A stretch of 64,000 nt of DNA from Alphaproteobacteria bacterium (GCA_965227455.1 OZ245752.1:5172822-5236821), one strand, 5' to 3'; shown: positions 14,223-44,795, counted from the stretch's first letter. Translations and numbers: made by a program. The notes: generated from the sequence alone by a model not told the origin.

Positions 14223-14397
14223 CACAGAGACACGGAGACACAGAGACCCAAAGATCCCTACCAGTCGTCATTCCCGCGAAAGCGGGAATCCAGAAGTCAC
14301 AGTTCTGACGGCGGAACCTCTGGGAAACCTGGATTCCCGCTTTCGCGGGAATGACGAAGTTCATGTTGATTTGGTTCTCTGTGTCTCTGCGCCTCTG
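14223..14397. repeat. Family-A composite palindromic element. Inner double hairpin: GTCATTCCCGCGAAAGCGGGAATCCAG ... CTGGATTCCCGCTTTCGCGGGAATGAC. Outer inverted arms: CACAGAGACACGGAGACACAGAGACC / GGTTCTCTGTGTCTCTG.
   Basis: Nested inverted repeats seen directly in the sequence. The same inner element recurs at 34449-34539. Spurious ORFs through it translate to IPAKAGIQ / WIPAFAGMT. Confidence 0.75.
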
Positions 14398-30084: not shown

Positions 30085-30113
30085 GAGCAAACGGTGACGG
30101 ACGTGACCTTAGC

Positions 30114-30234
30114 CCCCTCACCCTAACCCTCTCCCGCAAGGGGAGAGGGAATCCCAGCCGGCCCAGATCGGACTCCTCTCCCCTTGTGGGAGAGGAAGGG
30201 GCCCGCGGCGAAGCCGTGGGAAGGTGAGGGGGCT
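30114..30234. repeat. Family-B palindromic repeat element (CCCCTCACCC ... GGGAGAGGG ... CCCTCTCCC ... GGGTGAGGGGG), copy 1
   Basis: Nested inverted repeats. Five copies in the window share more than 80% of the core sequence. Confidence 0.8.
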
Positions 30235-30281
30235 GATGAAGGCTTGCGCAATGCGCTCGTGTTTGGCGGCGATCGGCCGGC

Positions 30282-32617: not shown

Positions 32618-32760
32618 CCCCTCACCCTCCCACGGCTTCGCCGCGGGTCCCTCCCTCTCCCGCGAGGGGAGAGGGGCAAGTAGCGCGCCGGCCCATTTGG
32701 TTCCCTCTCCCCTTGTGGGAGAGGGAGGGACCCGCGCGTCAGCGTGGGAGGGTGAGGGGT
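32618..32760. repeat. Family-B palindromic repeat element, copy 2
   Basis: Same core as 30114-30234. Confidence 0.8.
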
Positions 32761-33130
32761 CTACGAACGACCCCCCAATCCGCAATCAATGTTTCTGTCC
32801 GTGTCGTACGTCGTGCCCTGCAGTCAGAGGATGACCGGAAGACGTCCGACGGTCCGGTGCGGATGCCCTCGGCGCCGCCTCTGCGGACGCGGGCGGCGGG
32901 CGGGGGTGCCGGCCGGCATGACGTCCGGGGACATCAGGGGCCGAACCGGCGTGCCCGCCCGCCTTGCGCGAGCGCTCGGGCGGCGGATCGAGAGCATTCG
33001 GAACACCGTTCCGCCCGGCCCCGCCGCCTCGCCGCGCGGCCGAAGCCTTGCGGTCTGGTGGCGACGCCTGGACGTCTTCCGGCACCCTTCATTGGTTCTT
33101 CGCGTTATGGCGAAACCTGATTTCCAGTCA

Positions 33131-33204
33131 GGCGGATGAGGGGAGTTGAACCCCCGACTCCAAGGTCCGTAGCCTTGTGCTCTTCCAATCTGAGCTACAT
33201 CCTG
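33131..33204 (-). tRNA. tRNA-Arg(ACG)-like sequence. Cloverleaf and anticodon loop CTACGGA are intact. The first two 5-prime acceptor nucleotides do not pair and overlap the CCA of the upstream tRNA-like gene.
   Basis: Reverse complement GGATGTAGCTCAGATTGGAAGAGCACAAGGCTACGGACCTTGGAGTCGGGGGTTCAACTCCCCTCATCCGCC, folded by eye. The 3-prime acceptor strand CATCCGC demands a 5-prime GCGGATG, but the sequence reads caGGATG. Confidence 0.5.
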
Positions 33205-33277
33205 GTTGCAATGGTGGGAATCGAACCCACGACCTCCGAGGCTATCCTCGGCGCTCTGCACGCTGAGCTACATTGCC
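33203..33277 (-). tRNA. tRNA-like sequence with an encoded CCA. It has an Ala-like overall architecture but an atypical 6-nt anticodon loop (GATAGC) and a G1-A72 mismatch; the isotype could not be assigned.
   Basis: Reverse complement GGCAATGTAGCTCAGCGTGCAGAGCGCCGAGGATAGCCTCGGAGGTCGTGGGTTCGATTCCCACCATTGCAACCA. D-arm, T-arm (GTGGGTTCGATTCCCAC) and acceptor stem fold by eye. Confidence 0.4.
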
Positions 33278-33684: not shown

Positions 33685-34362
33685 CTATCGCGGCCGCCCG
33701 CCCTGCCCGTATCGGCTGCGGCGTTCCGCCCGGCGGTCCTGGCGGTTGGCGCGGGTCCAGCGCCAGAGCTGGCCGAGGCTGGTGGAGGCGTTGTCGAAGC
33801 GCTGGTCCAGCGCCAGCTTGTCCATGAACGGCGTCCAGACCCGCTCCTTGAACCGCCGCCAGGCCCACCACAGAACCAGGAACACGACTGCCAGCCAGAA
33901 GAAGAAGACGATGCGGAAGATCGGGATCGGGTAATGGTCCGGGCCCGGTGCCGTTTCGACATTCACCGCGTTCGGGAACATCGAGAAGATCTCAATGCGC
34001 CAGCCATAGTGTCTGACGATCACCCAATTCGGCGCCTCGGCGGTCGAGCGCATGTCCTGCGCCTCGGTCTGCAGGTTGCCGGAATCGAATTTGAAGTAGA
34101 ACGGGAAGCCCCAGCCGGTCTCCTCGTTGCGATAGACTCTGGGCCGCCCGTCCGGCCACACCGCGTTGATGAAGCGCACGTCGCGGGTGATGGCGGAGAG
34201 GTTGACCGCGTCCTCCTCCACGAAGTCCCGGGACAGCACGTTCATGCGCTTCACATCGGTGTCGACCACCCGGACCACGTCGTTGGAGGGCAGGTAGAAA
34301 TCCAGGAAGGCCAGCGCCACCAGCACCAGCAGGATCCTGATACCCCAGGTGAAGTACTTCAC
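33685..34362 (-). CDS. N-terminally membrane-anchored conserved protein (DUF1523-like)
   Basis: N-terminal TM helix (ILLVLVALAFLDFYL), a conserved FINAVWPDGRPRVYRNEETGWGFPFYFKFDS block, and a second TM helix near the C-terminus. Confidence 0.45.
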   Translation of the reverse strand: MKYFTWGIRILLVLVALAFLDFYLPSNDVVRVVDTDVKRMNVLSRDFVEEDAVNLSAITRDVRFINAVWPDGRPRVYRNEETGWGFPFYFKFDSGNLQTEAQDMRSTAEAPNWVIVRHYGWRIEIFSMFPNAVNVETAPGPDHYPIPIFRIVFFFWLAVVFLVLWWAWRRFKERVWTPFMDKLALDQRFDNASTSLGQLWRWTRANRQDRRAERRSRYGQGGRPR

Positions 34363-34448: not shown

Positions 34449-34539
34449 CGTCATTCCCGCGAAAGCGGGAATCCAGATTGCACGGTCTCGATGGCGGCAC
34501 CGTCGCAACACCTGGATTCCCGCTTTCGCGGGAATGACG
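34449..34539. repeat. Family-A double-hairpin element, copy 2
   Basis: CGTCATTCCCGCGAAAGCGGGAATCCAG ... CCTGGATTCCCGCTTTCGCGGGAATGACG. Confidence 0.75.
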
Positions 34540-34594: not shown

Positions 34595-35914
34595 TCATTT
34601 CCGTTTCCCCCAGGGGCCCTTCACTTGCGGGTCATGGCCGTAGAGGTGGTCCCAGACCTCGCTTTGCCGGCCCTGGTAATGGCGGGCCAGATAGTCGGCG
34701 ACCAGGGTCCGGCGATGGTCTGGCCAGGTTTCGTAGAGTTCGTAGAACCGCTCCTTGTTGCAGATGAACAGCTGCCGACAGTCGAGCGGCGTCATCCGCG
34801 CCAGCAGATGGTTCACCAGGTCGCGGTCCTTATGCTTGCTGGAACGATAAAGGTAGAAGAAGGCCGGATCCTCCGGATCGATCGCCGGTGCGGAGCCGTC
34901 CTGCTCGATGCCGCGCAGCACCCGCTGCAGGTCGTGGAACTCCTCCGGCAGCTCGTCGACGTTCTGCTGCACATAGCGGCGCAGCGTCACCGGATCGTAA
35001 TGCTCGATCTCGTCGGCATCGGCCTCCTCGCCGGCGTGGGCGAGGGCGATCAGGTCCAGCTTCTCCGCCAGGATCTCGCGCGATTCCCGGTCGTCGCGAT
35101 CGTGGATTCGCTCCACCAGCCCATCGCCGATCAGGAACGCCGCCAGCGCCTTTCGGTCGGAGATCGGCACATGCCGGAAGCCGGTCGTCCTGTCGGTATG
35201 TGCCTTGACCCCGTCATCGCCGCCGCCGCAATGGATCAGCGTCGGCTTGCGGGTGGCGTTGAACACGTAGAGCCCATCCAGGTGCGACGTGTAGAAATCG
35301 GTGTGCTCGTAGCGCAGCACCTCGGGCACCAGCGGGTGGGTGCGGACATCGCCCACCGCCTCGGCAAGGGCGATGATCTCCTGCAGGCGGTCGTCGTCGT
35401 TCCAGGCGGTGTCGCTGCGCTCGAACTCCTCGATATGGCGGTTGAGGCGGTGGGCCTTCATGACCAGCTTGCGCGGCGTGCGCACCTTGACCCGGATGTT
35501 CTTGATCGAGGTGATGTCGGCCAGGTTGCTGATCTTGTAGACCGAATCCTCCAGCTCGCCGAACACCGCGTCCCGGGCGGTCAGGCCGAACAGCGCCTCG
35601 CGGTTGTCGGAGATGAAGCGCTTCAGGATGTCCCGGCTGCAGGAGAAGGTGGCGTCCAGCAGCGGCAGATAGGCCTGCTCGACGGTCAGCAGGATGAACA
35701 TCCGGTTGCAGCCCTGGGGGTTGAGATAGCTGGGATCGTCCAGCTCCTCGGCGATCTCCGGCGAGAACCCGCTCTGGTCGATGCGGAACCGCTCCAGCGC
35801 GGTTGGCCGGCCATGCAGCAGTTCCAGCGCGCTGTTGTACCGGTCCCGCAGGATCGGCGTGGAAACCTCGAACAGGTTCCCGTAGATCAGATCGTTTTCC
35901 GCCAGCCGGTGCAT
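34595..35914 (-). CDS. Hypothetical 439-aa protein, last gene of the AAA+ cluster; no family recognised
   Basis: Long clean ORF with uniform codon usage. It is separated from the upstream ATPase gene by a family-B repeat. Confidence 0.6.
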   Translation of the reverse strand: MHRLAENDLIYGNLFEVSTPILRDRYNSALELLHGRPTALERFRIDQSGFSPEIAEELDDPSYLNPQGCNRMFILLTVEQAYLPLLDATFSCSRDILKRFISDNREALFGLTARDAVFGELEDSVYKISNLADITSIKNIRVKVRTPRKLVMKAHRLNRHIEEFERSDTAWNDDDRLQEIIALAEAVGDVRTHPLVPEVLRYEHTDFYTSHLDGLYVFNATRKPTLIHCGGGDDGVKAHTDRTTGFRHVPISDRKALAAFLIGDGLVERIHDRDDRESREILAEKLDLIALAHAGEEADADEIEHYDPVTLRRYVQQNVDELPEEFHDLQRVLRGIEQDGSAPAIDPEDPAFFYLYRSSKHKDRDLVNHLLARMTPLDCRQLFICNKERFYELYETWPDHRRTLVADYLARHYQGRQSEVWDHLYGHDPQVKGPWGKRK

Positions 35915-35963
35915 ATGGTCAACCGCGCTTCGACCTTGGAGAGATTGGTGCCGACATCGGCAT

Positions 35964-36110
35964 CCCCCTCACCCGCCCACGGCTTTGCCGCGGGTACCTC
36001 CCTCTCCCACCAGGGGAGAGGGGTATCAACAACGCGCCATGCGAATTGGCCCCTCTCCCCTTGCGGGAGAGGGAGGGACCCGCGCGATAGCGTGGGAGGG
36101 TGAGGGGGCT
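35964..36110. repeat. Family-B palindromic repeat element, copy 3 (between the AAA+ ATPase gene and the 439-aa gene)
   Basis: Same core as the other family-B copies. Confidence 0.8.
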
Positions 36111-36134
36111 TGGTCGCGTCCACATGCCGTTGCG

Positions 36135-38075
36135 CTAGCTCCCGGGGGACCCGAACCGGCGCCTTGCCTCGGTCTGCAGGCGCAGGTCGCGGACCATGCC
36201 GTCGATGGCGGATTCGTCGGAGACGTTGGCATAGCGCAGCTCGGCATCGGCGTAACGGTTGATCTCCTGCAGCACCATCTCATGGGTGATCGGATTCATC
36301 AGCTCTCCGATCATGCTGGACTTGGTGTCGTAGTCCTTGGCCAGGAACAGCTCCGGGTTTTCCATCCACTCATCCGGAAGTTCCACATCCATCGCCCGCA
36401 CCTTGATCGCATCGGTGATGTTCTTGATGGCGCGGCCGGTGAAGCGCTCGTCGACCTCCTGGATCGCCTTCAAATAGGCGCCCAGCTTGGCGATCGTGTC
36501 GAGCTTGCCGTGGCGCTTGTCGACCGCCTCCAGGATCGCCTCCAATTGCGGCTCCGCCGGACGGCTGTGCTTCTCATAGGACGCGGTGACCGCACGGCGC
36601 AGCTCCTGGGCCCCGTACAGATCGTGCTTGCCGACCGGGATCTTGTGATTGGAGCCCAGCAGCAGGTGCAGAATGTCGATGTAGTCGGCCTCGGTCTGCG
36701 GCCCGTCGACCAGGAAGCGGGCGCCGGCGCGCTGGCGCAGCGCATCATCGACGTTCTCCGGGTAGTTGGAGAACATGCCGAAGGAGCAGTTGCCGCGCAC
36801 CACCGTGTTGGCGCCGGCGAAGCTCTCCATCAGGACGGCGGTGATCTCCTGCTGGCCCGAGGATGACTGCCGGTCGCCGCGCCGGCCGGCGATCTGGTCG
36901 ATATCGTCGATGGTCCCGAGTCCGATGACATGCGGATCGAGCACGGTCTGGATGAACGACTTGGCGTTCTGCGCCGATTTTCCTTGGTAGGAGTCGATCG
37001 CCTCGCTGGACAGGTTCTCATAGCGGAACGGGTAGCCGGCGGCGTCGCTGTAGTCCTTCAGCAGCCCGGCCAGCATCTGGATCAGGGTGGTCTTGCCGGT
37101 GCCGGGCTTGCCGTCGCCCAGGAAGGTGAAGATGAAGCCGCCCAGCTCGACGAACGGGTTGAGCTGGCGGCTGAAATCATACGCCATCAGCATCTTGGCC
37201 AGCTTCAGGCATTGATGCTTGGCGATGTGGTTGCCGACGACCTCCTCCGGCTTCTTGAAGGTCATGGTCAGGGTCTGAGCCGCGGCGCGATGGGCCGGGG
37301 TGAACCCGTCGATCTGGAAATCGTCCGCCTCGACCCGGTAGGTGCGGGCGATGAAGGCGTCGAGATGGCGGGCGCCGGCGGCGCGCAATGCGATCTCCTT
37401 CATCAGGGTCTCGGCAAAGGCGTCGACCACCGCCGCCAGCTTGGCGTCGCTGTCTGCATGCAGGGCGACTTTGCGGTCCAAATCCCAGACCGCCCCCTTC
37501 AGCGCCGTGTTGGGATCGTCCAGTACGATCTCCTCAACGTCGCCCACCTCGATCTCCTGGATGTCCGGTTCGCCGCTGCCCCGGGTCAGGAAGCCCAGCA
37601 TGTTGGCGAAGGTGAACAGGGCGACGATGGAGGCGGCCGACAGCAGCTCGGAGAACTCCGCCTTCTGGGAGTCGGCCAGCCGGCCCTGCTTGTTCTGCTG
37701 CAGCATCTGCTGCAACGGGGTCAGCTCGGCGTAGAGCACGACCACCGCCTCGGCGACGGCGATGGCCCGCCGGGCGCTGCGCAGCACATGGGCCTGGATC
37801 TCGCTCTGCAGCGGATCCTCGTCATCCACCGTCTGGATTCGGGCCTCCAGCGACACTCCGGCGGATGGCGCGCTCGGCGTCGAGAGGCCCGGCGTGGTGG
37901 AGCGGAAGCGGCGACGGCCGGGGATGCCCGGCGACCGCCCGCGCGTTGCCGGCGCCCCCTCGACCGGCTTGCCGAAGCGCGGCGCGTAATCGAACCCGGC
38001 CAGCAGCTGATACGCTTGGGCGTAGTGCTTGCGGATATCGGATTCCTTGATCTCGATCAGCGATTGCACGGTCAT
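36135..38075 (-). CDS. AAA+ ATPase of the classical clade (CbbX/SpoVK-like P-loop GKPGTGKTT) with a ~300-aa N-terminal domain of unknown function
   Basis: Walker A (FTFLGDGKPGTGKTTLIQ), Walker B with DD instead of DE (GLGTIDDIDQI), sensor-1 / second region of homology (SNYPENVDDALRQRAGARF); 646 aa. Confidence 0.8.
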   Translation of the reverse strand: MTVQSLIEIKESDIRKHYAQAYQLLAGFDYAPRFGKPVEGAPATRGRSPGIPGRRRFRSTTPGLSTPSAPSAGVSLEARIQTVDDEDPLQSEIQAHVLRSARRAIAVAEAVVVLYAELTPLQQMLQQNKQGRLADSQKAEFSELLSAASIVALFTFANMLGFLTRGSGEPDIQEIEVGDVEEIVLDDPNTALKGAVWDLDRKVALHADSDAKLAAVVDAFAETLMKEIALRAAGARHLDAFIARTYRVEADDFQIDGFTPAHRAAAQTLTMTFKKPEEVVGNHIAKHQCLKLAKMLMAYDFSRQLNPFVELGGFIFTFLGDGKPGTGKTTLIQMLAGLLKDYSDAAGYPFRYENLSSEAIDSYQGKSAQNAKSFIQTVLDPHVIGLGTIDDIDQIAGRRGDRQSSSGQQEITAVLMESFAGANTVVRGNCSFGMFSNYPENVDDALRQRAGARFLVDGPQTEADYIDILHLLLGSNHKIPVGKHDLYGAQELRRAVTASYEKHSRPAEPQLEAILEAVDKRHGKLDTIAKLGAYLKAIQEVDERFTGRAIKNITDAIKVRAMDVELPDEWMENPELFLAKDYDTKSSMIGELMNPITHEMVLQEINRYADAELRYANVSDESAIDGMVRDLRLQTEARRRFGSPGS

Positions 38076-38100
38076 TCCAGTAGGTCCTTCATAACGCGGG

Positions 38101-39222
38101 TCAGCCCTGCTTCAGGACCAGCCCGTCCGGGCCGACGACATATTTCCGCAGCGGCCGAAGCTGCGGCGAATCCCGCTCGACCAGCCGCTGATAGGGGCGA
38201 TAGGGCAGGATCATGCCGCGCTCCAGCCGGGTGGCGCCGGCCTCCATCTCGTCATGGGCGTGCACGTCGATGTCGAAATCCTCGCTCTGGGTGCTGCCGA
38301 ACAGGCCGGAGCTGGTGGTCTTCGTCCCCTTCGAGCGCAGCGTCTCCACCGACCAGCAGAAGATCCAGTCCTGCTCCGATCCGGGCTCGGGTTCCGACAG
38401 CAGGTCCTGCACCACATCGGCATGGCGGGTGAAGCGGTTGGAATACATCGGCCCGAAATGGATGCGGCGCAGGCGCTTGGGGTGGACGTCGGGGAAATCC
38501 TTGTCGATGCCGCGGGCGATGGTCAGCAGCTTCAGGGTGGACAGCGATTGCGCCGTCACATGCTCCACCAGGCGCGGCCAGCGCCGCTCGTCGCCCAGCA
38601 GCGGCCGGTCGCCGGATTCTTCCAGGCCCAGCAGGTAGATGTTCGGCATGTTGCGGTGGCTGTCATAGACGGCCCAGCGCACCAGATAGGCGCGCCGGTC
38701 CGAGGACCGCTCGCCCACCTGCATGATGTCCGGCGCGTTCACCGGCAGATAAGGCGGACGCTCGGCCAGGATCTCGCAATAGATCCGCCGGCTCATCTGC
38801 GTTTGCAGCTTGCGCGGCATGCTGCGCCGGGTCAGCACGTGGTCCAGCATCTGGGCCTTGAGCATCCGGCGGGTCGGCAGGGTGGTCAGGATCCGGTTCG
38901 CCTCGTCCAGATCGATGCCGAGCTGCAGGAATTCCTGGAACACCGGATAGCCGGAATCGCTGCGGTCGATGGTCAGCCCGGCCGCCGCCTTGCCGCCGGG
39001 CTGCACCCGCCGGTAACGGGCCGACAGGGCCGCAAAGCTGGTCCGGAGCCGGTCCAGGTAGTCGTCGATTCCGGTGCGCTCCAGCAGTGAAAGCGCGCCC
39101 TTGCGCTCCGCCGCGATCAGCTCGACCGGGTTGGCGCGGCAGCGCGCGATGATGTCGACGAAGGTGCTGAAATAGCTGCGACGGGCCTCGCGGTCGTCGA
39201 TGACAAGGCTGGTACCGGGCAC
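38101..39222 (-). CDS. Hypothetical 373-aa protein; no family recognised
   Basis: Clean ORF, 25-bp gap to the ATPase gene, same strand. Confidence 0.6.
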   Translation of the reverse strand: MPGTSLVIDDREARRSYFSTFVDIIARCRANPVELIAAERKGALSLLERTGIDDYLDRLRTSFAALSARYRRVQPGGKAAAGLTIDRSDSGYPVFQEFLQLGIDLDEANRILTTLPTRRMLKAQMLDHVLTRRSMPRKLQTQMSRRIYCEILAERPPYLPVNAPDIMQVGERSSDRRAYLVRWAVYDSHRNMPNIYLLGLEESGDRPLLGDERRWPRLVEHVTAQSLSTLKLLTIARGIDKDFPDVHPKRLRRIHFGPMYSNRFTRHADVVQDLLSEPEPGSEQDWIFCWSVETLRSKGTKTTSSGLFGSTQSEDFDIDVHAHDEMEAGATRLERGMILPYRPYQRLVERDSPQLRPLRKYVVGPDGLVLKQG

Positions 39223-39282
39223 GGGCGGCTGTCCGTTCGCCGTCAGCGCTGCAAGGATCTCCGGCGGGTCGGAACGGCCATG

Positions 39283-40359
39283 CTAATTCGCCCCGCCATA
39301 GAGGTTGGCGTCATGTTTCTCCACGACCTTGGCGAAGCGGCGGGCAAAGCGCTCATCCGCCTTGGCCTTCTCCTCCAGCACCTTGCGGGCGAAGACGATG
39401 TTGTCCTCGTGGCCTTCCATCATGTCGGCGATGCGCGACTGGGTGGCCGAGCCGATCGCCGCCATGGCGACCTGCGCCTCCTTGTCGGTCTCGGTGCCGA
39501 TCTCGTTGATCTTGTGGGCGACTTCCTGCTGCTGGGCAGTCTTCAGCGACTTGGTCAGGGCGTCGTACAGCACCACCCGCTGCTTGGTGTCGGTCTGCAG
39601 CTTGTTGATCAGGACCATCTGGGTCGCCGCCTGGTTCTGCAGCGAATCCATCCAGGTCTTGCCCTTCTCGATATAGGTCTCCAGCGTCTGCGACCGGGCG
39701 ATCAGGACCTGCTCGTTCTGCACCAGCTCGTTGTGCTGGGTGTTGATCGCCGCCAGCTCGGATTCGAGCTTGGTGCGCTCGGCGGGGTCGGTGGCCATGG
39801 AGACGCGGTTCTCAAGATCGATGATCTTGGGGTCCAGCGCCTGCAATTCGGCCCGCAGCCCCTCGAGCTCGCCGACCACCCGCTCGCGCTCGTCCAGGGT
39901 GCGGGTCAAATTGCCCTCGACCTTGGTCTTCTGCTCGCTGAGACTGGACAACTGCCCCTGCAGGATCGAGACGATGGTGTTGGACTTGGCGATCAGGTCC
40001 TGAAGATTGTCGTCGATGCTGGCGAAACGGATGCGTTCCGCCCTCATGGTGTCGGCGCGGGCGGTGGAGAACCAGCCGACCACCGTCTCCCAGCCGGTCT
40101 TCTCCCGCATGGAGTTGAATTCCTTGGAGAAACCGGCGGTGACCTCGTCCAGGCTGATGATCAGCTCGGCGATGTTGCCGTTCATCGATTCCGCATGCGC
40201 GTCGACCTGCTCCAGGGTCGCATTCTCGATGTCGATGGCCAGGGTGTCGGTCTTGGCGAGATCGACGCCCGTAAAGGTGGTTGAGATTGCGGCGGCCTGC
40301 TTCTGCGCCTCCGCGACCTGGGCTTCGGCATTGCGAACAGCGGTCTCGAAATCCTGCAT
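39283..40359 (-). CDS. All-alpha coiled-coil protein, 358 aa (TelA/PspA-like in composition only)
   Basis: Heptad-rich Q/E/L/A/K composition throughout; first gene of the cluster. Confidence 0.6.
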   Translation of the reverse strand: MQDFETAVRNAEAQVAEAQKQAAAISTTFTGVDLAKTDTLAIDIENATLEQVDAHAESMNGNIAELIISLDEVTAGFSKEFNSMREKTGWETVVGWFSTARADTMRAERIRFASIDDNLQDLIAKSNTIVSILQGQLSSLSEQKTKVEGNLTRTLDERERVVGELEGLRAELQALDPKIIDLENRVSMATDPAERTKLESELAAINTQHNELVQNEQVLIARSQTLETYIEKGKTWMDSLQNQAATQMVLINKLQTDTKQRVVLYDALTKSLKTAQQQEVAHKINEIGTETDKEAQVAMAAIGSATQSRIADMMEGHEDNIVFARKVLEEKAKADERFARRFAKVVEKHDANLYGGAN

Positions 40360-40548
40360 CCGGTCCCCCGAAATCTCGTTAGAACGAACGAATCACACGC
40401 GAGATATGGGCGGAATGTAGCGGTTTTGCACGAAAAATTGCACGCGATACCTGTGCTTGGCGGCCTTCAGCGAGGACTTTTAGATACTTACGCCTCGGCT
40501 ATGATGGCCGCAAAACGAACACGGAAAGACAGGGGGAGGACGCTCGCC

Positions 40549-42264: not shown

Positions 42265-43167
42265 CTATGTGGTGATAAACCCGACCTCCGAATACAGCTT
42301 CTCTTCGATGTGCCGCCATTTGGTATTCATGAGGATCGAGTCGAGTTGCCCGGGTTGGTCCGCGGCACTGTCGACCCGTTGCCGAAGTTCGTCCGTGTCC
42401 GGGACCTCGTCCACGACCCTTGCGAAATAGACCTTCGTTGCCAGCGGCCTGGACGTCTCATCGCTCAGTATCGAGAGGATGCCGTACAGATCCGGGTGCT
42501 CCGTCTCGCCGACCGGAGAAAAGTTGACCAGCCATAATCCCTTGTTGGGGGCGGGCAGCCCAAGCATCTGGAAGCCATAGATGCTCCCGAAGAACAATCC
42601 CCGAAAGGTGATGACGGTACCCTCGTTCATATCGAGGGCCCCCCGGATCGCAACGACCTCCGCCGCCTTGGCGTAAGGCTCGAACGGCTTGATGGTGACC
42701 AACGAGGTGATGAGCCTGCCGGAGACCTCATGCCGGTACCCGATGAACCGGCCACTGAACTTCCTGCGGCTGGACTCCTGGTCGCCCAGTTCCATCAGCG
42801 ACGTGAACTCGCGAAAGAACTGCGCCTGCCGATCCCGAACATCGGGCAGGCTCGGCCGATCCTTCCGGTCGCGCGCCGACTCGCTGTACTCGCCGAAGAT
42901 AGACTTAGTAGCCTCTGGATAATTTGAGAGAAGATAGAAATAGAAACGCTGATCGAAATTGGCGCGAAAAAACGAATACAGACTCGCCGCTTCTCTGGGC
43001 TTAAGGCTCTGAAGCGGGTTCTTCTTTCGTGTAAAGTAACTCCATCTGTTTTCTGCCTGAGCCCCAAGATCCACTTGATCTCGAACAAACTCCTTCTTCG
43101 TACCTGTTATCGCACAGTAGACGTTCACCAATTCTCGAAGCAGGTCCGCCTCCGACCCGGCCCCCAT
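42265..43167 (-). CDS. Hypothetical 300-aa protein in a low-GC islet; no family recognised
   Basis: Clean ORF. AT-rich codon usage, unlike its neighbours. Confidence 0.5.
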   Translation of the reverse strand: MGAGSEADLLRELVNVYCAITGTKKEFVRDQVDLGAQAENRWSYFTRKKNPLQSLKPREAASLYSFFRANFDQRFYFYLLSNYPEATKSIFGEYSESARDRKDRPSLPDVRDRQAQFFREFTSLMELGDQESSRRKFSGRFIGYRHEVSGRLITSLVTIKPFEPYAKAAEVVAIRGALDMNEGTVITFRGLFFGSIYGFQMLGLPAPNKGLWLVNFSPVGETEHPDLYGILSILSDETSRPLATKVYFARVVDEVPDTDELRQRVDSAADQPGQLDSILMNTKWRHIEEKLYSEVGFITT

Positions 43168-43419
43168 TCTGCAATCTCCCGCTTATGCACAGCCTCCTTT
43201 TACACTAAACTGTAATCGCTTCATCCTGCCATGAAAAGTTTCTTTTTGAAGCAGTTAAGGCGCCTCGGGTATGGTAATCAGACCGATGAACTTTATCATG
43301 TGTTGCGTGATAGCGGTGATGGGCGCGGTATTTGATTGCTCATAACTCTCCGCACTCTAGAAGTTTTTTTTGGATCTATATCACGTTCGTGAGTTTTCTC
43401 TTTGCAGATTGGAGCAAGT

Positions 43420-44464
43420 AATGGAACGCCAAGAATTGATGGCCATTGCATTTAGAATGTCCACTGGAAAAAGTGAAGGGGAAATAGAAGTCGACGAGGA
43501 GGTTGGAAGCAAGATATTTTCATTTATGAATAATATACCATTGAATGTAATCGATGAAATAAAAGCAGCGCCTGCGCTGGATGTATTTCCTGTCACTTCA
43601 ACAGAAATATTTGGTGAGAAAATACTGAAAGTAGATCAGCTGCTACTTGATGTCGGCGCTGTTCTAGAGCTTTCAGCATTAGACGAGGATTTCTTAGCTA
43701 TAGTTGCGAAGGAAATTCGATTTCGTGCTCCTGAAGAGCGAGCAATAATTCGAAGGCAATTTACTGGCGTTGATGCGGGCACAGGGGCAAACGGAGCTCG
43801 AGGGCGCGATGGCCAGACTCCTGGGAAAGCGCCTAGAAAGAACAATGGACATCGAGGGGAGGACGGCGGTTCAGGCGGCTCTGGGAATGCAGGTGAAACG
43901 CGACATCTTCCGGATATCTATGTTTTCACTAACGCGATCAAGGAGATAGATAGAAATGACCCGCCATATTTCGTCGACATGGGACTCATTATGCCCGGCA
44001 TTGATGGTGGAGACGGCGGTATTGGCGGCGATGGAGGCAATGGCGGAAACGGTGGGAGTGGCGGAGACGGTGTCGACAGCCTAATCGACTGCAAAGGCGG
44101 GCCTGGAGACGGAGGCCGAGGTGGAAATGCTGGTCTAGGCGGTCGAGGAGGTGATGCCGGCAATGGGGGTGACGGAGCCAACGTCATTTACGTTGCATCG
44201 CCGGATGCGATGAATCTGCTGTCGGCCACTAAGGTTGTTAATAGACCGGGACAGGCTGGACGGCCGGGGCTCGGAGGGAGGCCGGGACGCGAAGGTGCCG
44301 GCGGACCAAGGGGGGGCAGGACGTTCTACTGTCATGGCGGTAGACGCGGATCAGACGGAGTTGTGCCCAACCCATGGACCCTCGGACCGGGTGAAGAAGG
44401 TGAAGGGGGGAAAAAGGGATCGGTCAGTCGGGTTCCTGTTGTTTCGATCGATGACTTGTATTGA
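43420..44464 (+). CDS. Glycine-rich protein with collagen-like G-X-Y and GGX repeats, no signal peptide
   Basis: Acidic ~130-aa N-terminal domain, then GANGARGRDGQTPGKAP ... GGDGGIGGDGGNGGNGGSGGDG ... GRPGLGGRPGREGAGGPRGG. The start is set at the ATG preceded by GGAG; the ORF track begins at 43370. Confidence 0.5.
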
Positions 44465-44795
44465 TTGAAATAATGAAACCTGTATTTGTCGTAGATTATT
44501 TCCTTTTTGCTTTCTTTTGATTTTCAAGGTGGTCGAGCACGTCCGATTTTTGGGCATAACTTGTGCTCGACTGCTTTGAAATCGAGTGCCTTTGCTGCCC
44601 TGGAGCATCACCTGAAAAACACCACGGACTGAATGAGCTAGATCGGCCCGATTGAATACCCTGGCTCCCCTTCGCCGGCTGCTGGGCGCCTATCTTGAGC
44701 GCCAATTGAACGACCGGCCACGATGCCACAACGGTGACGATGCGCAGCACGCTTAGAATTGGGTATGCTGTGCCTGCAACTGATGGAGGCTGGCG

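What the first reader, a model, noticed from the sequence alone, without database searches (positions are those of the whole stretch)
34595..40359. Four-gene minus-strand cluster of unknown function built around a CbbX/SpoVK-type AAA+ ATPase, next to a tRNA junction
Four co-oriented genes sit with short gaps: 39283-40359 (coiled-coil), 38101-39222, 36135-38075 (AAA+ ATPase) and 34595-35914. Three of them match no family I recognise. The fourth is a classical-clade AAA+ ATPase with a 300-aa unknown N-terminal domain. The cluster lies immediately beside two abutting tRNA-like genes (33131-33277) and is punctuated by mobile-looking palindromic repeats (34449-34539 and 35964-36110). That is the typical context of a variable or integration hot-spot. 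The architecture (coiled-coil scaffold, AAA+ remodeller, two partners) does not match any named defence or stress system I can recall: not Zorya, Gabija, PARIS, Septu, Shedu, Ter/TelA or Psp. It is therefore a candidate for an undescribed stress or defence module.
Basis: partly seen in the sequence, partly recalled or inferred. Interest (0 to 1): 0.75.

Follow-up and report, generated by a model that had tools for sequence, protein, structure and literature searches.

The report
Conserved stress-linked AAA+ ATPase operon
The four genes are real, but with a fifth membrane-protein gene they form an uncharacterised operon conserved in more than 500 bacterial species and built around a protein-unfolding-type ATPase; its counterpart in a model rhizobium is switched on by the heat-shock sigma factor, so it looks like an unstudied stress machine, not a mobile anti-phage island.

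Summary
**Observation.** The four minus-strand ORFs are at the stated coordinates. The unit is larger than reported: the next gene (33685-34362, DUF1523, a 2-TM membrane protein) belongs to it.

**Conservation.**
- The order coiled-coil protein, 373-aa protein, AAA+ ATPase, DUF6638, DUF1523 holds in nearly all of 80 retrieved loci, drawn from at least 551 species genomes.
- In Roseibium the genes overlap by 1-4 nt.
- The four-gene core also occurs in Sinorhizobium and in low-GC replicons. There the membrane partner is DUF2333, or none was detected.

**Context.** Flanks differ between lineages and are ordinary genes. GC content is genome-typical. 54 of 60 related loci have no tRNA within 10 kb. 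The palindromes are dispersed REP-like repeats. There are no phage hits and no PADLOC hits. The "hot-spot/defence" reading is therefore not supported.

**Proteins.**
- The ATPase is a divergent classical-clade AAA protein, nearest to YME1, Rix7, Rpt4 and Vps4. It is not CbbX/SpoVK-type. It keeps a pore-loop Tyr and an invariant DD Walker B.
- The 373-aa protein folds confidently (pLDDT 84.5) but has no PDB counterpart.

**Expression.** In S. meliloti the orthologues are SMc02735-SMc02733. They sit in an experimentally supported operon. SMc02735 is induced by acid shock only when RpoH1 is present.

**Best reading.** An undescribed membrane-associated AAA+ remodelling system that belongs to the heat-shock regulon.

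The parts
39283..40359 (-). Gene 1: 358-aa all-helical coiled-coil protein with no Pfam family (S. meliloti orthologue SMc02735)
   Evidence: - ORF.
- 62-67% identical across orders, the same level as the ATPase.
- No family hit.
- AF2 model: hairpin H103-188/H192-287, confident only for about residues 130-250; mean pLDDT 59.9.
38101..39222 (-). Gene 2: 373-aa alpha/beta protein with no Pfam family (SMc02734 orthologue)
   Evidence: - ORF.
- 37-47% identical in 76 loci.
- AF2 pLDDT 84.5, pTM 0.85.
- The family has only 608 representatives among 1.84 billion proteins. All are <=415 aa, with no domain fusions.
36135..38075 (-). Gene 3: 646-aa classical-clade AAA+ ATPase (SMc02733 orthologue). 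It has a family-specific N-domain (residues 1 to about 300) and a conserved C-terminal extension (about 500-646).
   Evidence: - PF00004 at residues 322-455.
- Walker A is GDGKPGTGKT. The pore loop is S-Y363-Q-G. Walker B is I-D390-D391-I-D, i.e. DD rather than DE. The SRH region is SNYPENVDDALRQRAGAR.
- All are invariant in 18 sequences. They are conserved, with minor substitutions, in the 40-53%-identical orthologues.
- Nearest solved relatives are YME1, Rix7, Rpt4, VAT, fidgetin-like, katanin and Vps4.
34595..35914 (-). Gene 4: 439-aa DUF6638 protein, ending in a variable/acidic linker plus a conserved (G)PWG tail
   Evidence: - PF20343, E 5.9e-115.
- Syntenic in 68 loci.
- The PWG tail is present in 63 of 68 orthologues from DUF1523-type loci. 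It is absent in the three loci that have DUF2333 or no detected membrane partner.
- Weak, unconfirmed profile hit to the thermosome apical domain, E 0.0016.
33685..34362 (-).
   Evidence: - PF07509, E 7.8e-58.
- Hydrophobic segments at residues 1-30 and 143-169.
- Syntenic in 65-67 loci. It overlaps the DUF6638 stop codon by 1-4 nt in Roseibium.
40404..40432 (-). Promoter-like element upstream of gene 1: CGTGCA-N16-CCCATAT (-35 at 40432-40427, -10 at 40410-40404)
   Evidence: - Sequence read directly.
- A C[CT][CT]A[TC]NT motif lies at -55 to -30 in 43 of 72 orthologous upstream regions, against 2.9% of random windows.
- The base at its first position is C in 37 of 56.
- It fits the RpoH1/RpoH2 consensus CTTGAA/CTTGCC-N15-16-CCTATAT/CCTATCT (PMC4843759). 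The alphaproteobacterial sigma-70 consensus is similar, so the assignment is not unique.
35961..36110 (.). REP-like palindromic repeat pair in the spacer between the AAA and DUF6638 genes. Incidental, not part of the system.
   Evidence: Copies of the same family lie at 30110-30235 and 32618-32763.
34449..34539 (.). Second dispersed hairpin-pair repeat, in the spacer between the DUF6638 and DUF1523 genes. Incidental.
   Evidence: 28-nt arms, 100% complementary. An identical pair lies at 14270-14352.

Best explanation
The locus is a vertically inherited five-gene operon: coiled-coil protein, 373-aa protein, AAA+ ATPase, DUF6638, DUF1523. It most likely encodes an undescribed, inner-membrane-associated AAA+ protein-remodelling machine that belongs to the RpoH (heat-shock/proteotoxic stress) regulon.

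**Proposed mechanism**
1. Stress raises transcription from a conserved TTG/CCYATNT promoter about 60 nt upstream of the coiled-coil gene. This is shown in S. meliloti for the first gene and inferred here.
2. The ATPase forms a ring and pulls polypeptide through its pore using the invariant Tyr363 pore loop. This is inferred from the motifs and from membership of the classical AAA clade.
3. The coiled-coil protein is as conserved as the ATPase. It is an obligate stoichiometric partner, acting either as a scaffold/adaptor or as the polymer that gets remodelled (inferred).
4. The 373-aa protein and DUF6638 are accessory adaptors or regulators (inferred).
5. The DUF1523 membrane protein, replaced by DUF2333 in other lineages, tethers the complex to the inner membrane or couples it to the periplasm. 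It may do so through the DUF6638 PWG tail (inferred from co-occurrence).
For: **Operon and conservation**
- The same gene order holds in nearly all of 80 loci from at least 551 matching species genomes. These span Rhodobacterales, Stappiaceae, Hyphomonadaceae-like lineages, Kiloniellales, Cohaesibacter and Inquilinaceae.
- In Roseibium the stop and start codons overlap by 4 or 1 nt.
- No other gene is conserved in the flanks.
- The four-gene core recurs with a DUF2333 membrane protein in S. meliloti and in a low-GC bacterium, and next to mfd, with no membrane partner detected, in the replicon filed under V. vulnificus.

**ATPase**
- PF00004 domain.
- Classical-clade relatives that are unfoldases or disassemblases.
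- Walker A, the SYQG pore loop and the arginine-finger region are conserved down to the 40%-identical orthologues.

**Membrane link**
- DUF1523 has two TM segments.
- An extra 91-aa 2-TM ORF is present in 49 of 80 loci.
- DUF2333 is a membrane protein.

**Stress regulon**
- SMc02735, SMc02734 and SMc02733 match the cluster in gene sizes and promoter sequence.
- They lie in an 'experimental' operon with four mapped transcription start sites (PMC3616915).
- SMc02735 is induced by acid shift in the wild type (M up to 1.65) and stays flat in the rpoH1 mutant. In the mutant data it falls in cluster L with groEL5, grpE, clpB, clpP2 and hslV (PMC2976971).
- SMc02735 is up 1.49-fold and SMc02734 up 2.03-fold in a tolC mutant that shows a stress response (PMC2912261).
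- An RpoH-like motif is conserved in position upstream of gene 1 in 43 of 72 loci, including this window.
Against: - No function has been tested for any member.
- The RpoH1 dependence is shown for only one gene, in one species, whose system is the DUF2333 variant. That system is 41-53% identical to this window for the coiled-coil protein and the ATPase, and 29-31% for the other two proteins.
- SMc02734 and SMc02733 were not among the 210 genes that passed the array threshold.
- The promoter motif cannot be told apart from the alphaproteobacterial sigma-70 consensus. Schlueter et al. list the SMc02735 promoter under RpoD.
- The window's own -35 element (CGTGCA) is poor.
- Walker B has Asp in place of the catalytic Glu in every member. 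The protein could therefore be a slow ATPase or a nucleotide-dependent switch rather than a processive motor.
- The coiled-coil model has low confidence (pLDDT 59.9), and its fold matches are generic.
- No substrate is identified.
Confidence: 0.45

Rival explanations
1. A Vps4/ESCRT-III-like or PspA-like membrane-repair system. This is a specific sub-case of the best explanation. The coiled-coil hairpin protein polymerises on stressed inner membrane, and the AAA+ ATPase disassembles and recycles it.
For: - The ATPase's solved relatives include the disassemblases Vps4, katanin and fidgetin-like.
- Gene 1 is a long helical hairpin that is as conserved as the ATPase.
- Membrane partners are present.
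- Induction is stress-dependent.
Against: - There is no PspA_IM30, Snf7 or MIT Pfam hit, even at E<=1 across 26 members.
- The model has low confidence.
- At 358 aa the protein is much longer than ESCRT-III or PspA (my own knowledge).
Confidence: 0.15
2. A housekeeping structural or cell-envelope module that is not primarily a stress system, for example a coiled-coil scaffold involved in envelope or polar organisation. The ATPase would act as its assembly factor, and transcription would come mainly from a sigma-70 promoter.
For: - Sequence conservation and synteny are very high across orders.
- In S. meliloti the operon is expressed under standard conditions, with four transcription start sites and a promoter listed as RpoD-type.
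- It is co-transcribed with thymidine kinase.
- A ChvI-binding fragment lies inside SMc02733 (PMC3687685).
Against: - Induction is RpoH1-dependent and clusters with the chaperones.
- The module is missing or degraded in some genomes (L043 and L047), so it is not universally essential.
That is only a lower bound, but it suggests that just part of the Alphaproteobacteria carry it.
Confidence: 0.2
3. An anti-phage or other conflict system sitting in a variable island.
For: - The module is a multi-gene unit of unknown proteins that includes an ATPase.
- There is a weak PADLOC TRIP13 hit (E 1.9e-6), which reflects general AAA similarity.
- In S. meliloti a DUF559 endonuclease-like gene follows the ATPase (SMc02732 in strain 1021), and strain Ak57 also carries an IS element there.
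Against: - There is no PADLOC system hit.
- Stable synteny and 62-67% identity across orders are the opposite of the patchy, fast-evolving pattern expected of defence genes.
- GC content is genome-typical.
- The flanks are ordinary metabolic genes with no integrase.
- The closest relative has the same flanks.
- There are no phage copies.
- The one IMG/VR contig that carries it looks bacterial: it has FliM, DnaJ and deformylase.
- tRNA adjacency is not general.
Confidence: 0.05

Closest known systems
Classical-clade AAA+ unfoldases and disassemblases (FtsH/YME1, Rpt subunits, Cdc48/VAT/Rix7, Vps4, katanin, fidgetin)
   Same: - PF00004 domain, Walker A, an aromatic pore loop 1 (SYQG) and the second region of homology with arginines.
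- These proteins give the best PDB sequence matches, E 1e-7 to 1e-3.
   Different: - Similarity is very weak, with the profile E-value only 2.8e-4.
- Walker B is DD, not DE.
- The N-domain (about 300 aa) and the C-terminal extension (about 150 aa) are unique to this family.
- There is no protease, MIT or double-psi-barrel domain detected.
- It is encoded with four dedicated partners of unknown families.
RpoH (sigma-32) regulon proteostasis machines (ClpB, HslUV, FtsH-HflKC, HtpX)
   Same: - The S. meliloti orthologue of gene 1 shows the same RpoH1-dependent acid-shock induction profile as clpB, hslV, clpP2, grpE and groEL5.
- An RpoH-like promoter motif is present.
- The system has an AAA+ ATPase and membrane partners.
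   Different: - No partner is homologous to a protease, HflK/C (SPFH) or a known adaptor.
- The substrate is unknown.
- The regulon link has been tested in only one species.
Vps4-ESCRT-III / PspA-Vipp1 membrane-remodelling systems
   Same: A helical-hairpin protein paired with a classical AAA ATPase, in a membrane context, with stress induction.
   Different: There is no sequence or fold evidence for ESCRT-III or PspA, and no MIT domain. The resemblance is functional only and is untested.
CbbX / SpoVK AAA+ proteins
   Same: All are AAA+ proteins with a Walker A motif.
   Different: spore_V_K scores 12.8 bits against a 422.95-bit cut-off. No CbbX appears among the 60 best PDB matches.

Membership tests
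Classical AAA clade (Pfam PF00004) | Score above the Pfam gathering threshold | tested here: met
   50.2 bits against a 21.2-bit cut-off, residues 322-455
Classical AAA clade (Pfam PF00004) | Walker A GxxGxGK[ST]; pore-loop-1 aromatic residue; second region of homology with arginine fingers | tested here: met
   GKPGTGKT, S-Y363-Q-G and SNYPENVDDALRQRAGAR are invariant in 18 sequences. They align to YME1 and Rpt4 and are kept with minor substitutions in the distant orthologues.
Classical AAA clade (Pfam PF00004) | Walker B hhhhDE with a catalytic Glu | tested here: not met
   The motif is I-D-D-I-D. Asp391 aligns with the Glu of YME1's DELD. The DD pair is invariant in all members, including the 40%-identical ones.
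CbbX/SpoVK subfamily | Match to the equivalog or subfamily model, or closest similarity to CbbX/SpoVK | tested here: not met
   TIGR02881 scores 12.8 bits against a 422.95-bit cut-off. No CbbX in the top 60 PDB hits.
Known anti-phage defence systems (PADLOC-DB v2) | Component proteins match the system HMMs | tested here: not met
   Only weak hits of generic AAA, coiled-coil or marginal type: TRIP13 1.9e-6, IetA 1e-3, MTase_II 1e-3, LmuB 0.02. No system can be assembled from them.
Known anti-phage defence systems (PADLOC-DB v2) | Patchy distribution in variable islands, on mobile elements or on phages | tested here: not met
   - Stable synteny in nearly all of 80 loci from at least 551 matching species genomes.
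- Housekeeping flanks.
- Genome-typical GC content.
- No phage records.
- The hits in the plasmid collection are 0.9-4.6 Mb non-mobilizable replicons.
ESCRT-III / PspA-IM30 with a Vps4-type ATPase | Snf7 or PspA_IM30 family match, or a specific fold match, for the helical protein | tested here: not met
ESCRT-III / PspA-IM30 with a Vps4-type ATPase | MIT domain at the N-terminus of the ATPase | tested here: not met
   No Pfam domain is detected in residues 1-300 at E<=0.1.
RpoH (sigma-32) regulon | Transcription depends on RpoH under stress | tested here: inconclusive
   Published arrays show RpoH1-dependent induction of the orthologue SMc02735 in S. meliloti (PMC2976971). This has not been tested in the organism of this window, nor for the other genes.
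RpoH (sigma-32) regulon | Promoter matching CTTGAA-N15-16-CCTATAT or CCCATNT | tested here: inconclusive
   The window has CGTGCA-N16-CCCATAT. The -10 motif is conserved in position in 43 of 72 loci. However, it is similar to the alphaproteobacterial sigma-70 consensus, and the S. meliloti promoter is listed as RpoD-type.
DUF6638 (PF20343) and DUF1523 (PF07509) | Score above the gathering threshold | tested here: met
   385 bits against 27 for DUF6638, and 195.2 bits against 23 for DUF1523.
FtsH-type membrane AAA protease | Peptidase_M41 domain and two N-terminal TM helices | tested here: not met
   No M41 hit. There is only one borderline hydrophobic segment, at residues 144-164.
TelA / toxic-anion-resistance helical proteins | PF05816 match | tested here: not met
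   No TelA hit for any of 26 coiled-coil orthologues at E<=1.

The most novel reading that the evidence does not exclude
The module is a previously unrecognised proteostasis or membrane-repair machine of the alphaproteobacterial heat-shock regulon.

Its core would be a classical-clade AAA+ motor with an unusual DD Walker B. The motor works with three dedicated partners, and the predicted fold of at least one of them has no counterpart in the PDB. The complex is tethered to the inner membrane by interchangeable DUF1523 or DUF2333 proteins.

The most interesting version is a bacterial analogue of Vps4/ESCRT-III, or of Msp1-type membrane-protein extraction.
Probability: 0.3. Interest if true: 0.8.

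Novelty: new variant of a known kind. Interest (0 to 1): 0.55.

Why it matters
**Why the module deserves attention**
- Bacterial heat-shock regulons are thought to be well catalogued: ClpB, HslUV, FtsH, Lon, DnaK and GroEL.
- Here is an AAA+ ATPase with four dedicated partners, conserved at more than 60% identity in hundreds of marine and plant-associated Alphaproteobacteria. It is present in model organisms such as S. meliloti and in well-known genera (Ruegeria, Roseibium).
- It is RpoH1-dependent in the one species where data exist, yet it has no name, no phenotype and no literature.
- Two of its proteins have no Pfam family. One of them folds confidently into something with no PDB counterpart.

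**Why it is tractable**
- The orthologues SMc02735-SMc02733 sit in a genetically easy organism, so the question can be tested directly.

**What this changes for the scan**
- The result corrects the 'defence island next to a tRNA' heuristic. The tRNA and the palindromes were incidental.

Tried and rejected
1. **Named families.** Pfam, NCBIfam, PADLOC and PHROGs scans of all five proteins gave only AAA, DUF6638 and DUF1523. Scanning 26 orthologues each at E<=1 gave no consistent weak family: no TelA, PspA or Cpn60.
2. **PDB profile searches.** There was nothing for the coiled-coil, 373-aa and DUF1523 proteins. DUF6638 gave a borderline match to the thermosome apical domain (E 0.0016). I did not accept it, because no member hits Cpn60_TCP1.
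3. **Fold search of the coiled-coil model.** The matches were generic (MSP1, syntaxin, STAT, MukF, SMC, XaxA/AhlB), so it was rejected as uninformative.
5. **Internal paralogy.** hhalign between the ATPase, 373-aa and DUF6638 profiles found none.
6. **Known regulatory motifs upstream.** EcfG, CtrA, LexA, sigma-54 and RpoE-like motifs were not enriched. A strict RpoH regular expression was too narrow. A position-based analysis then found the motif.
7. **Mobile-element idea.** There were no phage hits. The hits in the plasmid collection are large non-mobilizable replicons of 0.9-4.6 Mb; those over 3.5 Mb look like chromosomes. The single IMG/VR contig looks bacterial.
8. **Literature.**
   - DUF6638 returns no papers. 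DUF1523 and DUF2333 get incidental mentions only.
   - Barnett et al. 2012, the RpoH1/H2 regulon paper, is not held.
   - The supplements held for the S. meliloti NCR Tn-seq paper do not list these genes.
9. **The 'CbbX/SpoVK' label.** Rejected.

Full report

They are 39283-40359 (358 aa), 38101-39222 (373 aa), 36135-38075 (646 aa) and 34595-35914 (439 aa).
- The 646-aa protein carries a PF00004 AAA domain at residues 322-455 (50.2 bits, cut-off 21.2).
- The 439-aa protein is not an orphan. It is Pfam DUF6638 (E 5.9e-115).
- The 358-aa and 373-aa proteins match no Pfam, NCBIfam, PADLOC or PHROGs family.
- The two abutting tRNA-like genes and the two palindromic elements are also present.

**2. 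The unit is bigger and far more conserved than described.**

The ATPase has full-length relatives of 62-67% identity in many alphaproteobacterial lineages. I searched the best 80 loci with the window's proteins.
- In nearly every locus long enough to tell, the order is the same: coiled-coil protein (62-67% identity outside the closest relative L005), 373-aa protein (37-47%), ATPase (61-67%), DUF6638 (38-43%), and then a fifth co-oriented gene.
- That fifth gene is the orthologue of window ORF 33685-34362, a DUF1523 protein (E 7.8e-58).
- In the Roseibium/Stappia loci the last three genes overlap by 4 or 1 nt, and the first three are 8-10 nt apart. This is the signature of one translationally coupled operon.
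- An all-against-all comparison of flanking ORFs found no other gene conserved across lineages.
- Rhodobacteraceae and some Hyphomonadaceae-like loci add a 91-aa 2-TM ORF between DUF6638 and DUF1523. It is present in 49 of 80 loci and absent from the window.

More distant copies of the four-gene core also exist.
- S. meliloti, Shinella and Rhizobium have copies whose ATPase is 53-56% identical.
- Replicons of about 0.9 Mb filed under Vibrio have copies at about 40% identity. The one examined, from V. vulnificus, has 37% GC.
- A 359-kb low-GC contig also carries the core. Its FliM, DnaJ-like and deformylase genes mark it as bacterial.
- In S. meliloti and in the low-GC contig the membrane partner is a DUF2333 protein instead of DUF1523. 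In the V. vulnificus replicon the core is followed by mfd, with no membrane partner detected.

A membrane protein from one of two unrelated families is the usual fifth member.

**3. The 'hot-spot' context does not hold.**
- The cluster's GC content (0.63-0.68) equals the window average.
- The closest relative (L005, an Inquilinaceae MAG whose cluster proteins are 83-92% identical) has the same flanks on both sides.
- In Albibacillus the flanks are ordinary metabolic genes with no integrase or defence genes.
- 54 of 60 related loci have no tRNA within 10 kb.
- Both palindromes belong to dispersed repeat families with other copies in the window. CCCTCTCCC...GGGAGAGGG pairs lie at 30110-30235 and 32618-32763. 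The ATTCCCGCGAAAGCGGGAAT pair recurs at 14270-14352.
- There is no copy in 50,697 phage records. The hits in the plasmid collection are large non-mobilizable replicons of 0.9-4.6 Mb.
- The truly anomalous region of this neighbourhood is the low-GC stretch at about 42.2-44.7 kb. It lies outside the finding.

**4. What the proteins are.**

*ATPase.* A family profile and the isolated AAA domain both find only classical-clade AAA proteins in the PDB, and only weakly. The hits are YME1 (E 1e-7), Rix7, Rpt4, VAT, fidgetin-like 1, katanin, Vps4 and Pex6. No CbbX appears. The SpoVK equivalog scores 12.8 bits against a 422.95-bit cut-off. The CbbX/SpoVK label is therefore rejected.
- Invariant in 18 orthologues are Walker A (GKPGTGKT), a pore-loop-1 aromatic motif (S-Y363-Q-G, aligned with the KY/WxG loop of YME1 and Rpt4), and the second region of homology with its arginines. 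They persist, with minor substitutions, in the 40-53%-identical copies from S. meliloti, the low-GC contig and the Vibrio replicon.
- Walker B is I-D-D-I-D in every member. Asp391 replaces the catalytic Glu.
- The roughly 300-residue N-domain and the roughly 150-residue C-terminal extension are family-specific. One borderline hydrophobic segment lies at residues 144-164.

*DUF6638.* It has no solved relative. A borderline match to the thermosome apical domain (E 0.0016) is not backed by Pfam scans. It ends in a variable, often poly-acidic linker plus a conserved (G)PWG tail. The tail is present in 63 of 68 orthologues from DUF1523-type loci and absent from the three loci with DUF2333 or no detected membrane partner.

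*DUF1523.* It has two TM segments around a periplasmic domain of about 120 residues, and a basic, Trp-containing cytoplasmic tail.

The ATPase, 373-aa and DUF6638 families are not paralogues of each other.

**5. Expression evidence.**

The S. meliloti locus maps onto published locus tags through identical gene lengths and an identical promoter sequence. The mapping is SMc02735 (coiled-coil), SMc02734 (373-aa homologue), SMc02733 (ATPase) and SMc02732 (a DUF559 endonuclease-like insert).
- Schlueter et al. (PMC3616915) list SMc02736-SMc02732 as an experimentally supported operon with four mRNA start sites upstream of SMc02735.
- In de Lucena et al. (PMC2976971), SMc02735 is one of 210 genes responding to acid shift in the wild type. 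Its M values are 0.05, 0.38, 0.52, 1.19, 1.65 and 1.03.
- In the rpoH1 mutant it stays flat (-0.19 to 0.29). It falls in mutant cluster L with groEL5, grpE, clpB, clpA/S, clpP2, hslV and hflKC. The authors call this class RpoH1-dependent.
- SMc02735 (1.49-fold), SMc02734 (2.03-fold) and SMc02732 (1.71-fold) are also up in a tolC mutant with a general stress response (PMC2912261).
- A ChvI-binding fragment lies inside SMc02733 (PMC3687685).

Upstream of the coiled-coil gene, 43 of 72 loci carry C[CT][CT]A[TC]NT at -55 to -30 from the start codon, and the window is one of them. The rates are 2.9% in random windows and 1.4% on the opposite strand. A TTG/ATG-containing element lies 14-16 nt further upstream. 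The first base of the -10 box is C in 37 of 56 loci.
- The window reads CGTGCA-N16-CCCATAT at 40432-40404.
- This fits the S. meliloti RpoH1/RpoH2 consensus CTTGAA/CTTGCC-N15-16-CCTATAT/CCTATCT (quoted in PMC4843759). It also fits the TTG emphasis of the R. sphaeroides RpoH logos (PMC3441632).
- The caveat is that the alphaproteobacterial sigma-70 consensus is very similar. Schlueter et al. list the SMc02735 promoter in their RpoD table, and the RpoH tables are truncated in the held copy.
- A subset of Rhodobacteraceae also has a TGTAA-N7-T(A/T)ACA palindrome across this promoter, in 24 of 72 loci against 7 of 1600 controls. This suggests an additional unknown regulator.

**6. Most likely mechanism.**

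I commit to an inner-membrane-associated AAA+ protein-remodelling machine of the heat-shock/proteotoxic stress regulon (confidence about 0.45).
- *Shown:* operon structure and conservation; classical-AAA motifs including the pore-loop Tyr; membrane topology of the fifth component by hydropathy; RpoH1-dependent induction of the first gene in one species.
- *Inferred:* ring formation and substrate threading; the coiled-coil protein as an obligate partner or substrate, because it is as conserved as the motor; the 373-aa and DUF6638 proteins as adaptors; tethering through DUF1523 or DUF2333, possibly via the PWG tail.
- *Open:* the invariant DD Walker B may mean slow hydrolysis or switch-like behaviour.

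The rivals are as follows.
- A Vps4/ESCRT-III- or PspA-like membrane-repair cycle (0.15). It is attractive but has no fold support.
- A housekeeping envelope or scaffold module driven by sigma-70 (0.2).
- Anti-phage defence (0.05). Conservation, context and the absence of PADLOC hits all contradict it.

**7. Comparison with what is known, and verdict.**
- The ATPase is a member of the classical AAA clade with an atypical Walker B. It is not a CbbX/SpoVK, FtsH or Vps4 family member.
- The system as a whole matches no described system. No paper mentions DUF6638, and every orthologue I looked up is annotated as hypothetical, DUF, or a generic ATPase.
- I class it as a new variant of a known kind: an AAA+ remodelling system with an entirely new partner set.
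The 'variable hot-spot/defence' half is not supported.
- Interest is moderate to high (0.55). The module is widespread, lies in model organisms, is probably part of a supposedly well-known regulon, and is directly testable. However, its function remains inferred.

Noticed in passing
window 33131-33277 (-); L005 14882-15032: The two abutting tRNA-like genes read tRNA-Arg(ACG) plus a tRNA with a 6-nt anticodon loop in the window. The positionally orthologous pair in the closest relative reads tRNA-Pro(CGG) plus tRNA-Gly(TCC). The two pairs align at 88% column identity. The second gene differs mainly in the anticodon stem-loop, while the first also differs in its acceptor arm. Acceptor stems look imperfect, and Rfam scores are modest (47-48 bits).
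   Followed up: partly
window 42265-44700: A low-GC island (0.46-0.60 against about 0.66) holds two ORFs with no family hits: 42265-43167(-), 300 aa, and 43370-44464(+), 364 aa, with Gly-rich GGxGG repeats. The 300-aa ORF has no counterpart in the closest relative L005. This stretch, not the AAA cluster, looks like the variable region of the neighbourhood.
   Followed up: partly
window 14270-14352 and 34453-34535; 30110-30235, 32618-32763, 35961-36110: Two dispersed palindromic repeat families lie in intergenic spacers: ATTCCCGCGAAAGCGGGAAT hairpin pairs and CCCTCTCCC...GGGAGAGGG REP-like pairs. They sit inside operon spacers without disrupting genes.
   Followed up: partly
Related loci, about -60 from the coiled-coil gene (e.g. 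L044, L039, L018): A palindrome, TGTAA-N7-T(A/T)ACA, overlaps the promoter in 24 of 72 loci, all of them among the Rhodobacteraceae-type loci (control 7 of 1600). It looks like an operator for an unknown regulator. It is absent upstream of the window's coiled-coil gene.
   Followed up: partly
L081 13705-13980 and 11935-12237; 49 of 80 loci: Rhodobacteraceae add a conserved 91-aa 2-TM ORF between DUF6638 and DUF1523. Albibacillus also has a 100-aa multi-TM ORF that overlaps the ATPase stop codon. Neither is present in the window.
   Followed up: partly
L084 (NZ_CP015514.1) and three similar records: 'Plasmids' of about 0.9 Mb are filed under Vibrio vulnificus and V. parahaemolyticus. The V. vulnificus record has 37% GC around the hit and carries the four-gene core next to mfd, an RNase H gene and an A24 peptidase. 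They look like unusual megareplicons or a co-assembled foreign genome.
   Followed up: no
L077 (CP022737.1, 'Halomonas ventosae'): A record labelled as a gammaproteobacterium carries the five genes plus the 91-aa small TM ORF that is otherwise seen mainly in Rhodobacteraceae-type loci, at the usual 62% identity. This may be a mislabelled or contaminated record, or a horizontal transfer.
   Followed up: no
L047 (Labrenzia sp. DG1229) and L043 (alphaproteobacterial MAG): These are rare degraded or dispersed instances. In L047 the coiled-coil gene is missing, and the 373-aa gene is truncated next to an ABC-permease/glycosidase block. In L043 the ATPase gene stands alone between a GTP-cyclohydrolase-II gene and EamA/pheT.
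   Followed up: partly
window ATPase residues 5-27 and DUF6638 residues 13-35: The N-termini of the ATPase and DUF6638 share a short helix motif, (K/R)(H/R)Y..A..LL.G. The similarity is not statistically significant (hhalign probability 0.25%), but it could be a common docking helix.
   Followed up: no
L083 9914-11659 (S. meliloti Ak57); SMc02732 in strain 1021: In S. meliloti a DUF559 endonuclease-like gene sits between the ATPase and DUF6638 genes. In strain Ak57 an ISRm16 transposase is there as well. The operon therefore tolerates insertions at this spacer, which is the same spacer that holds a REP element in the window.
   Followed up: no
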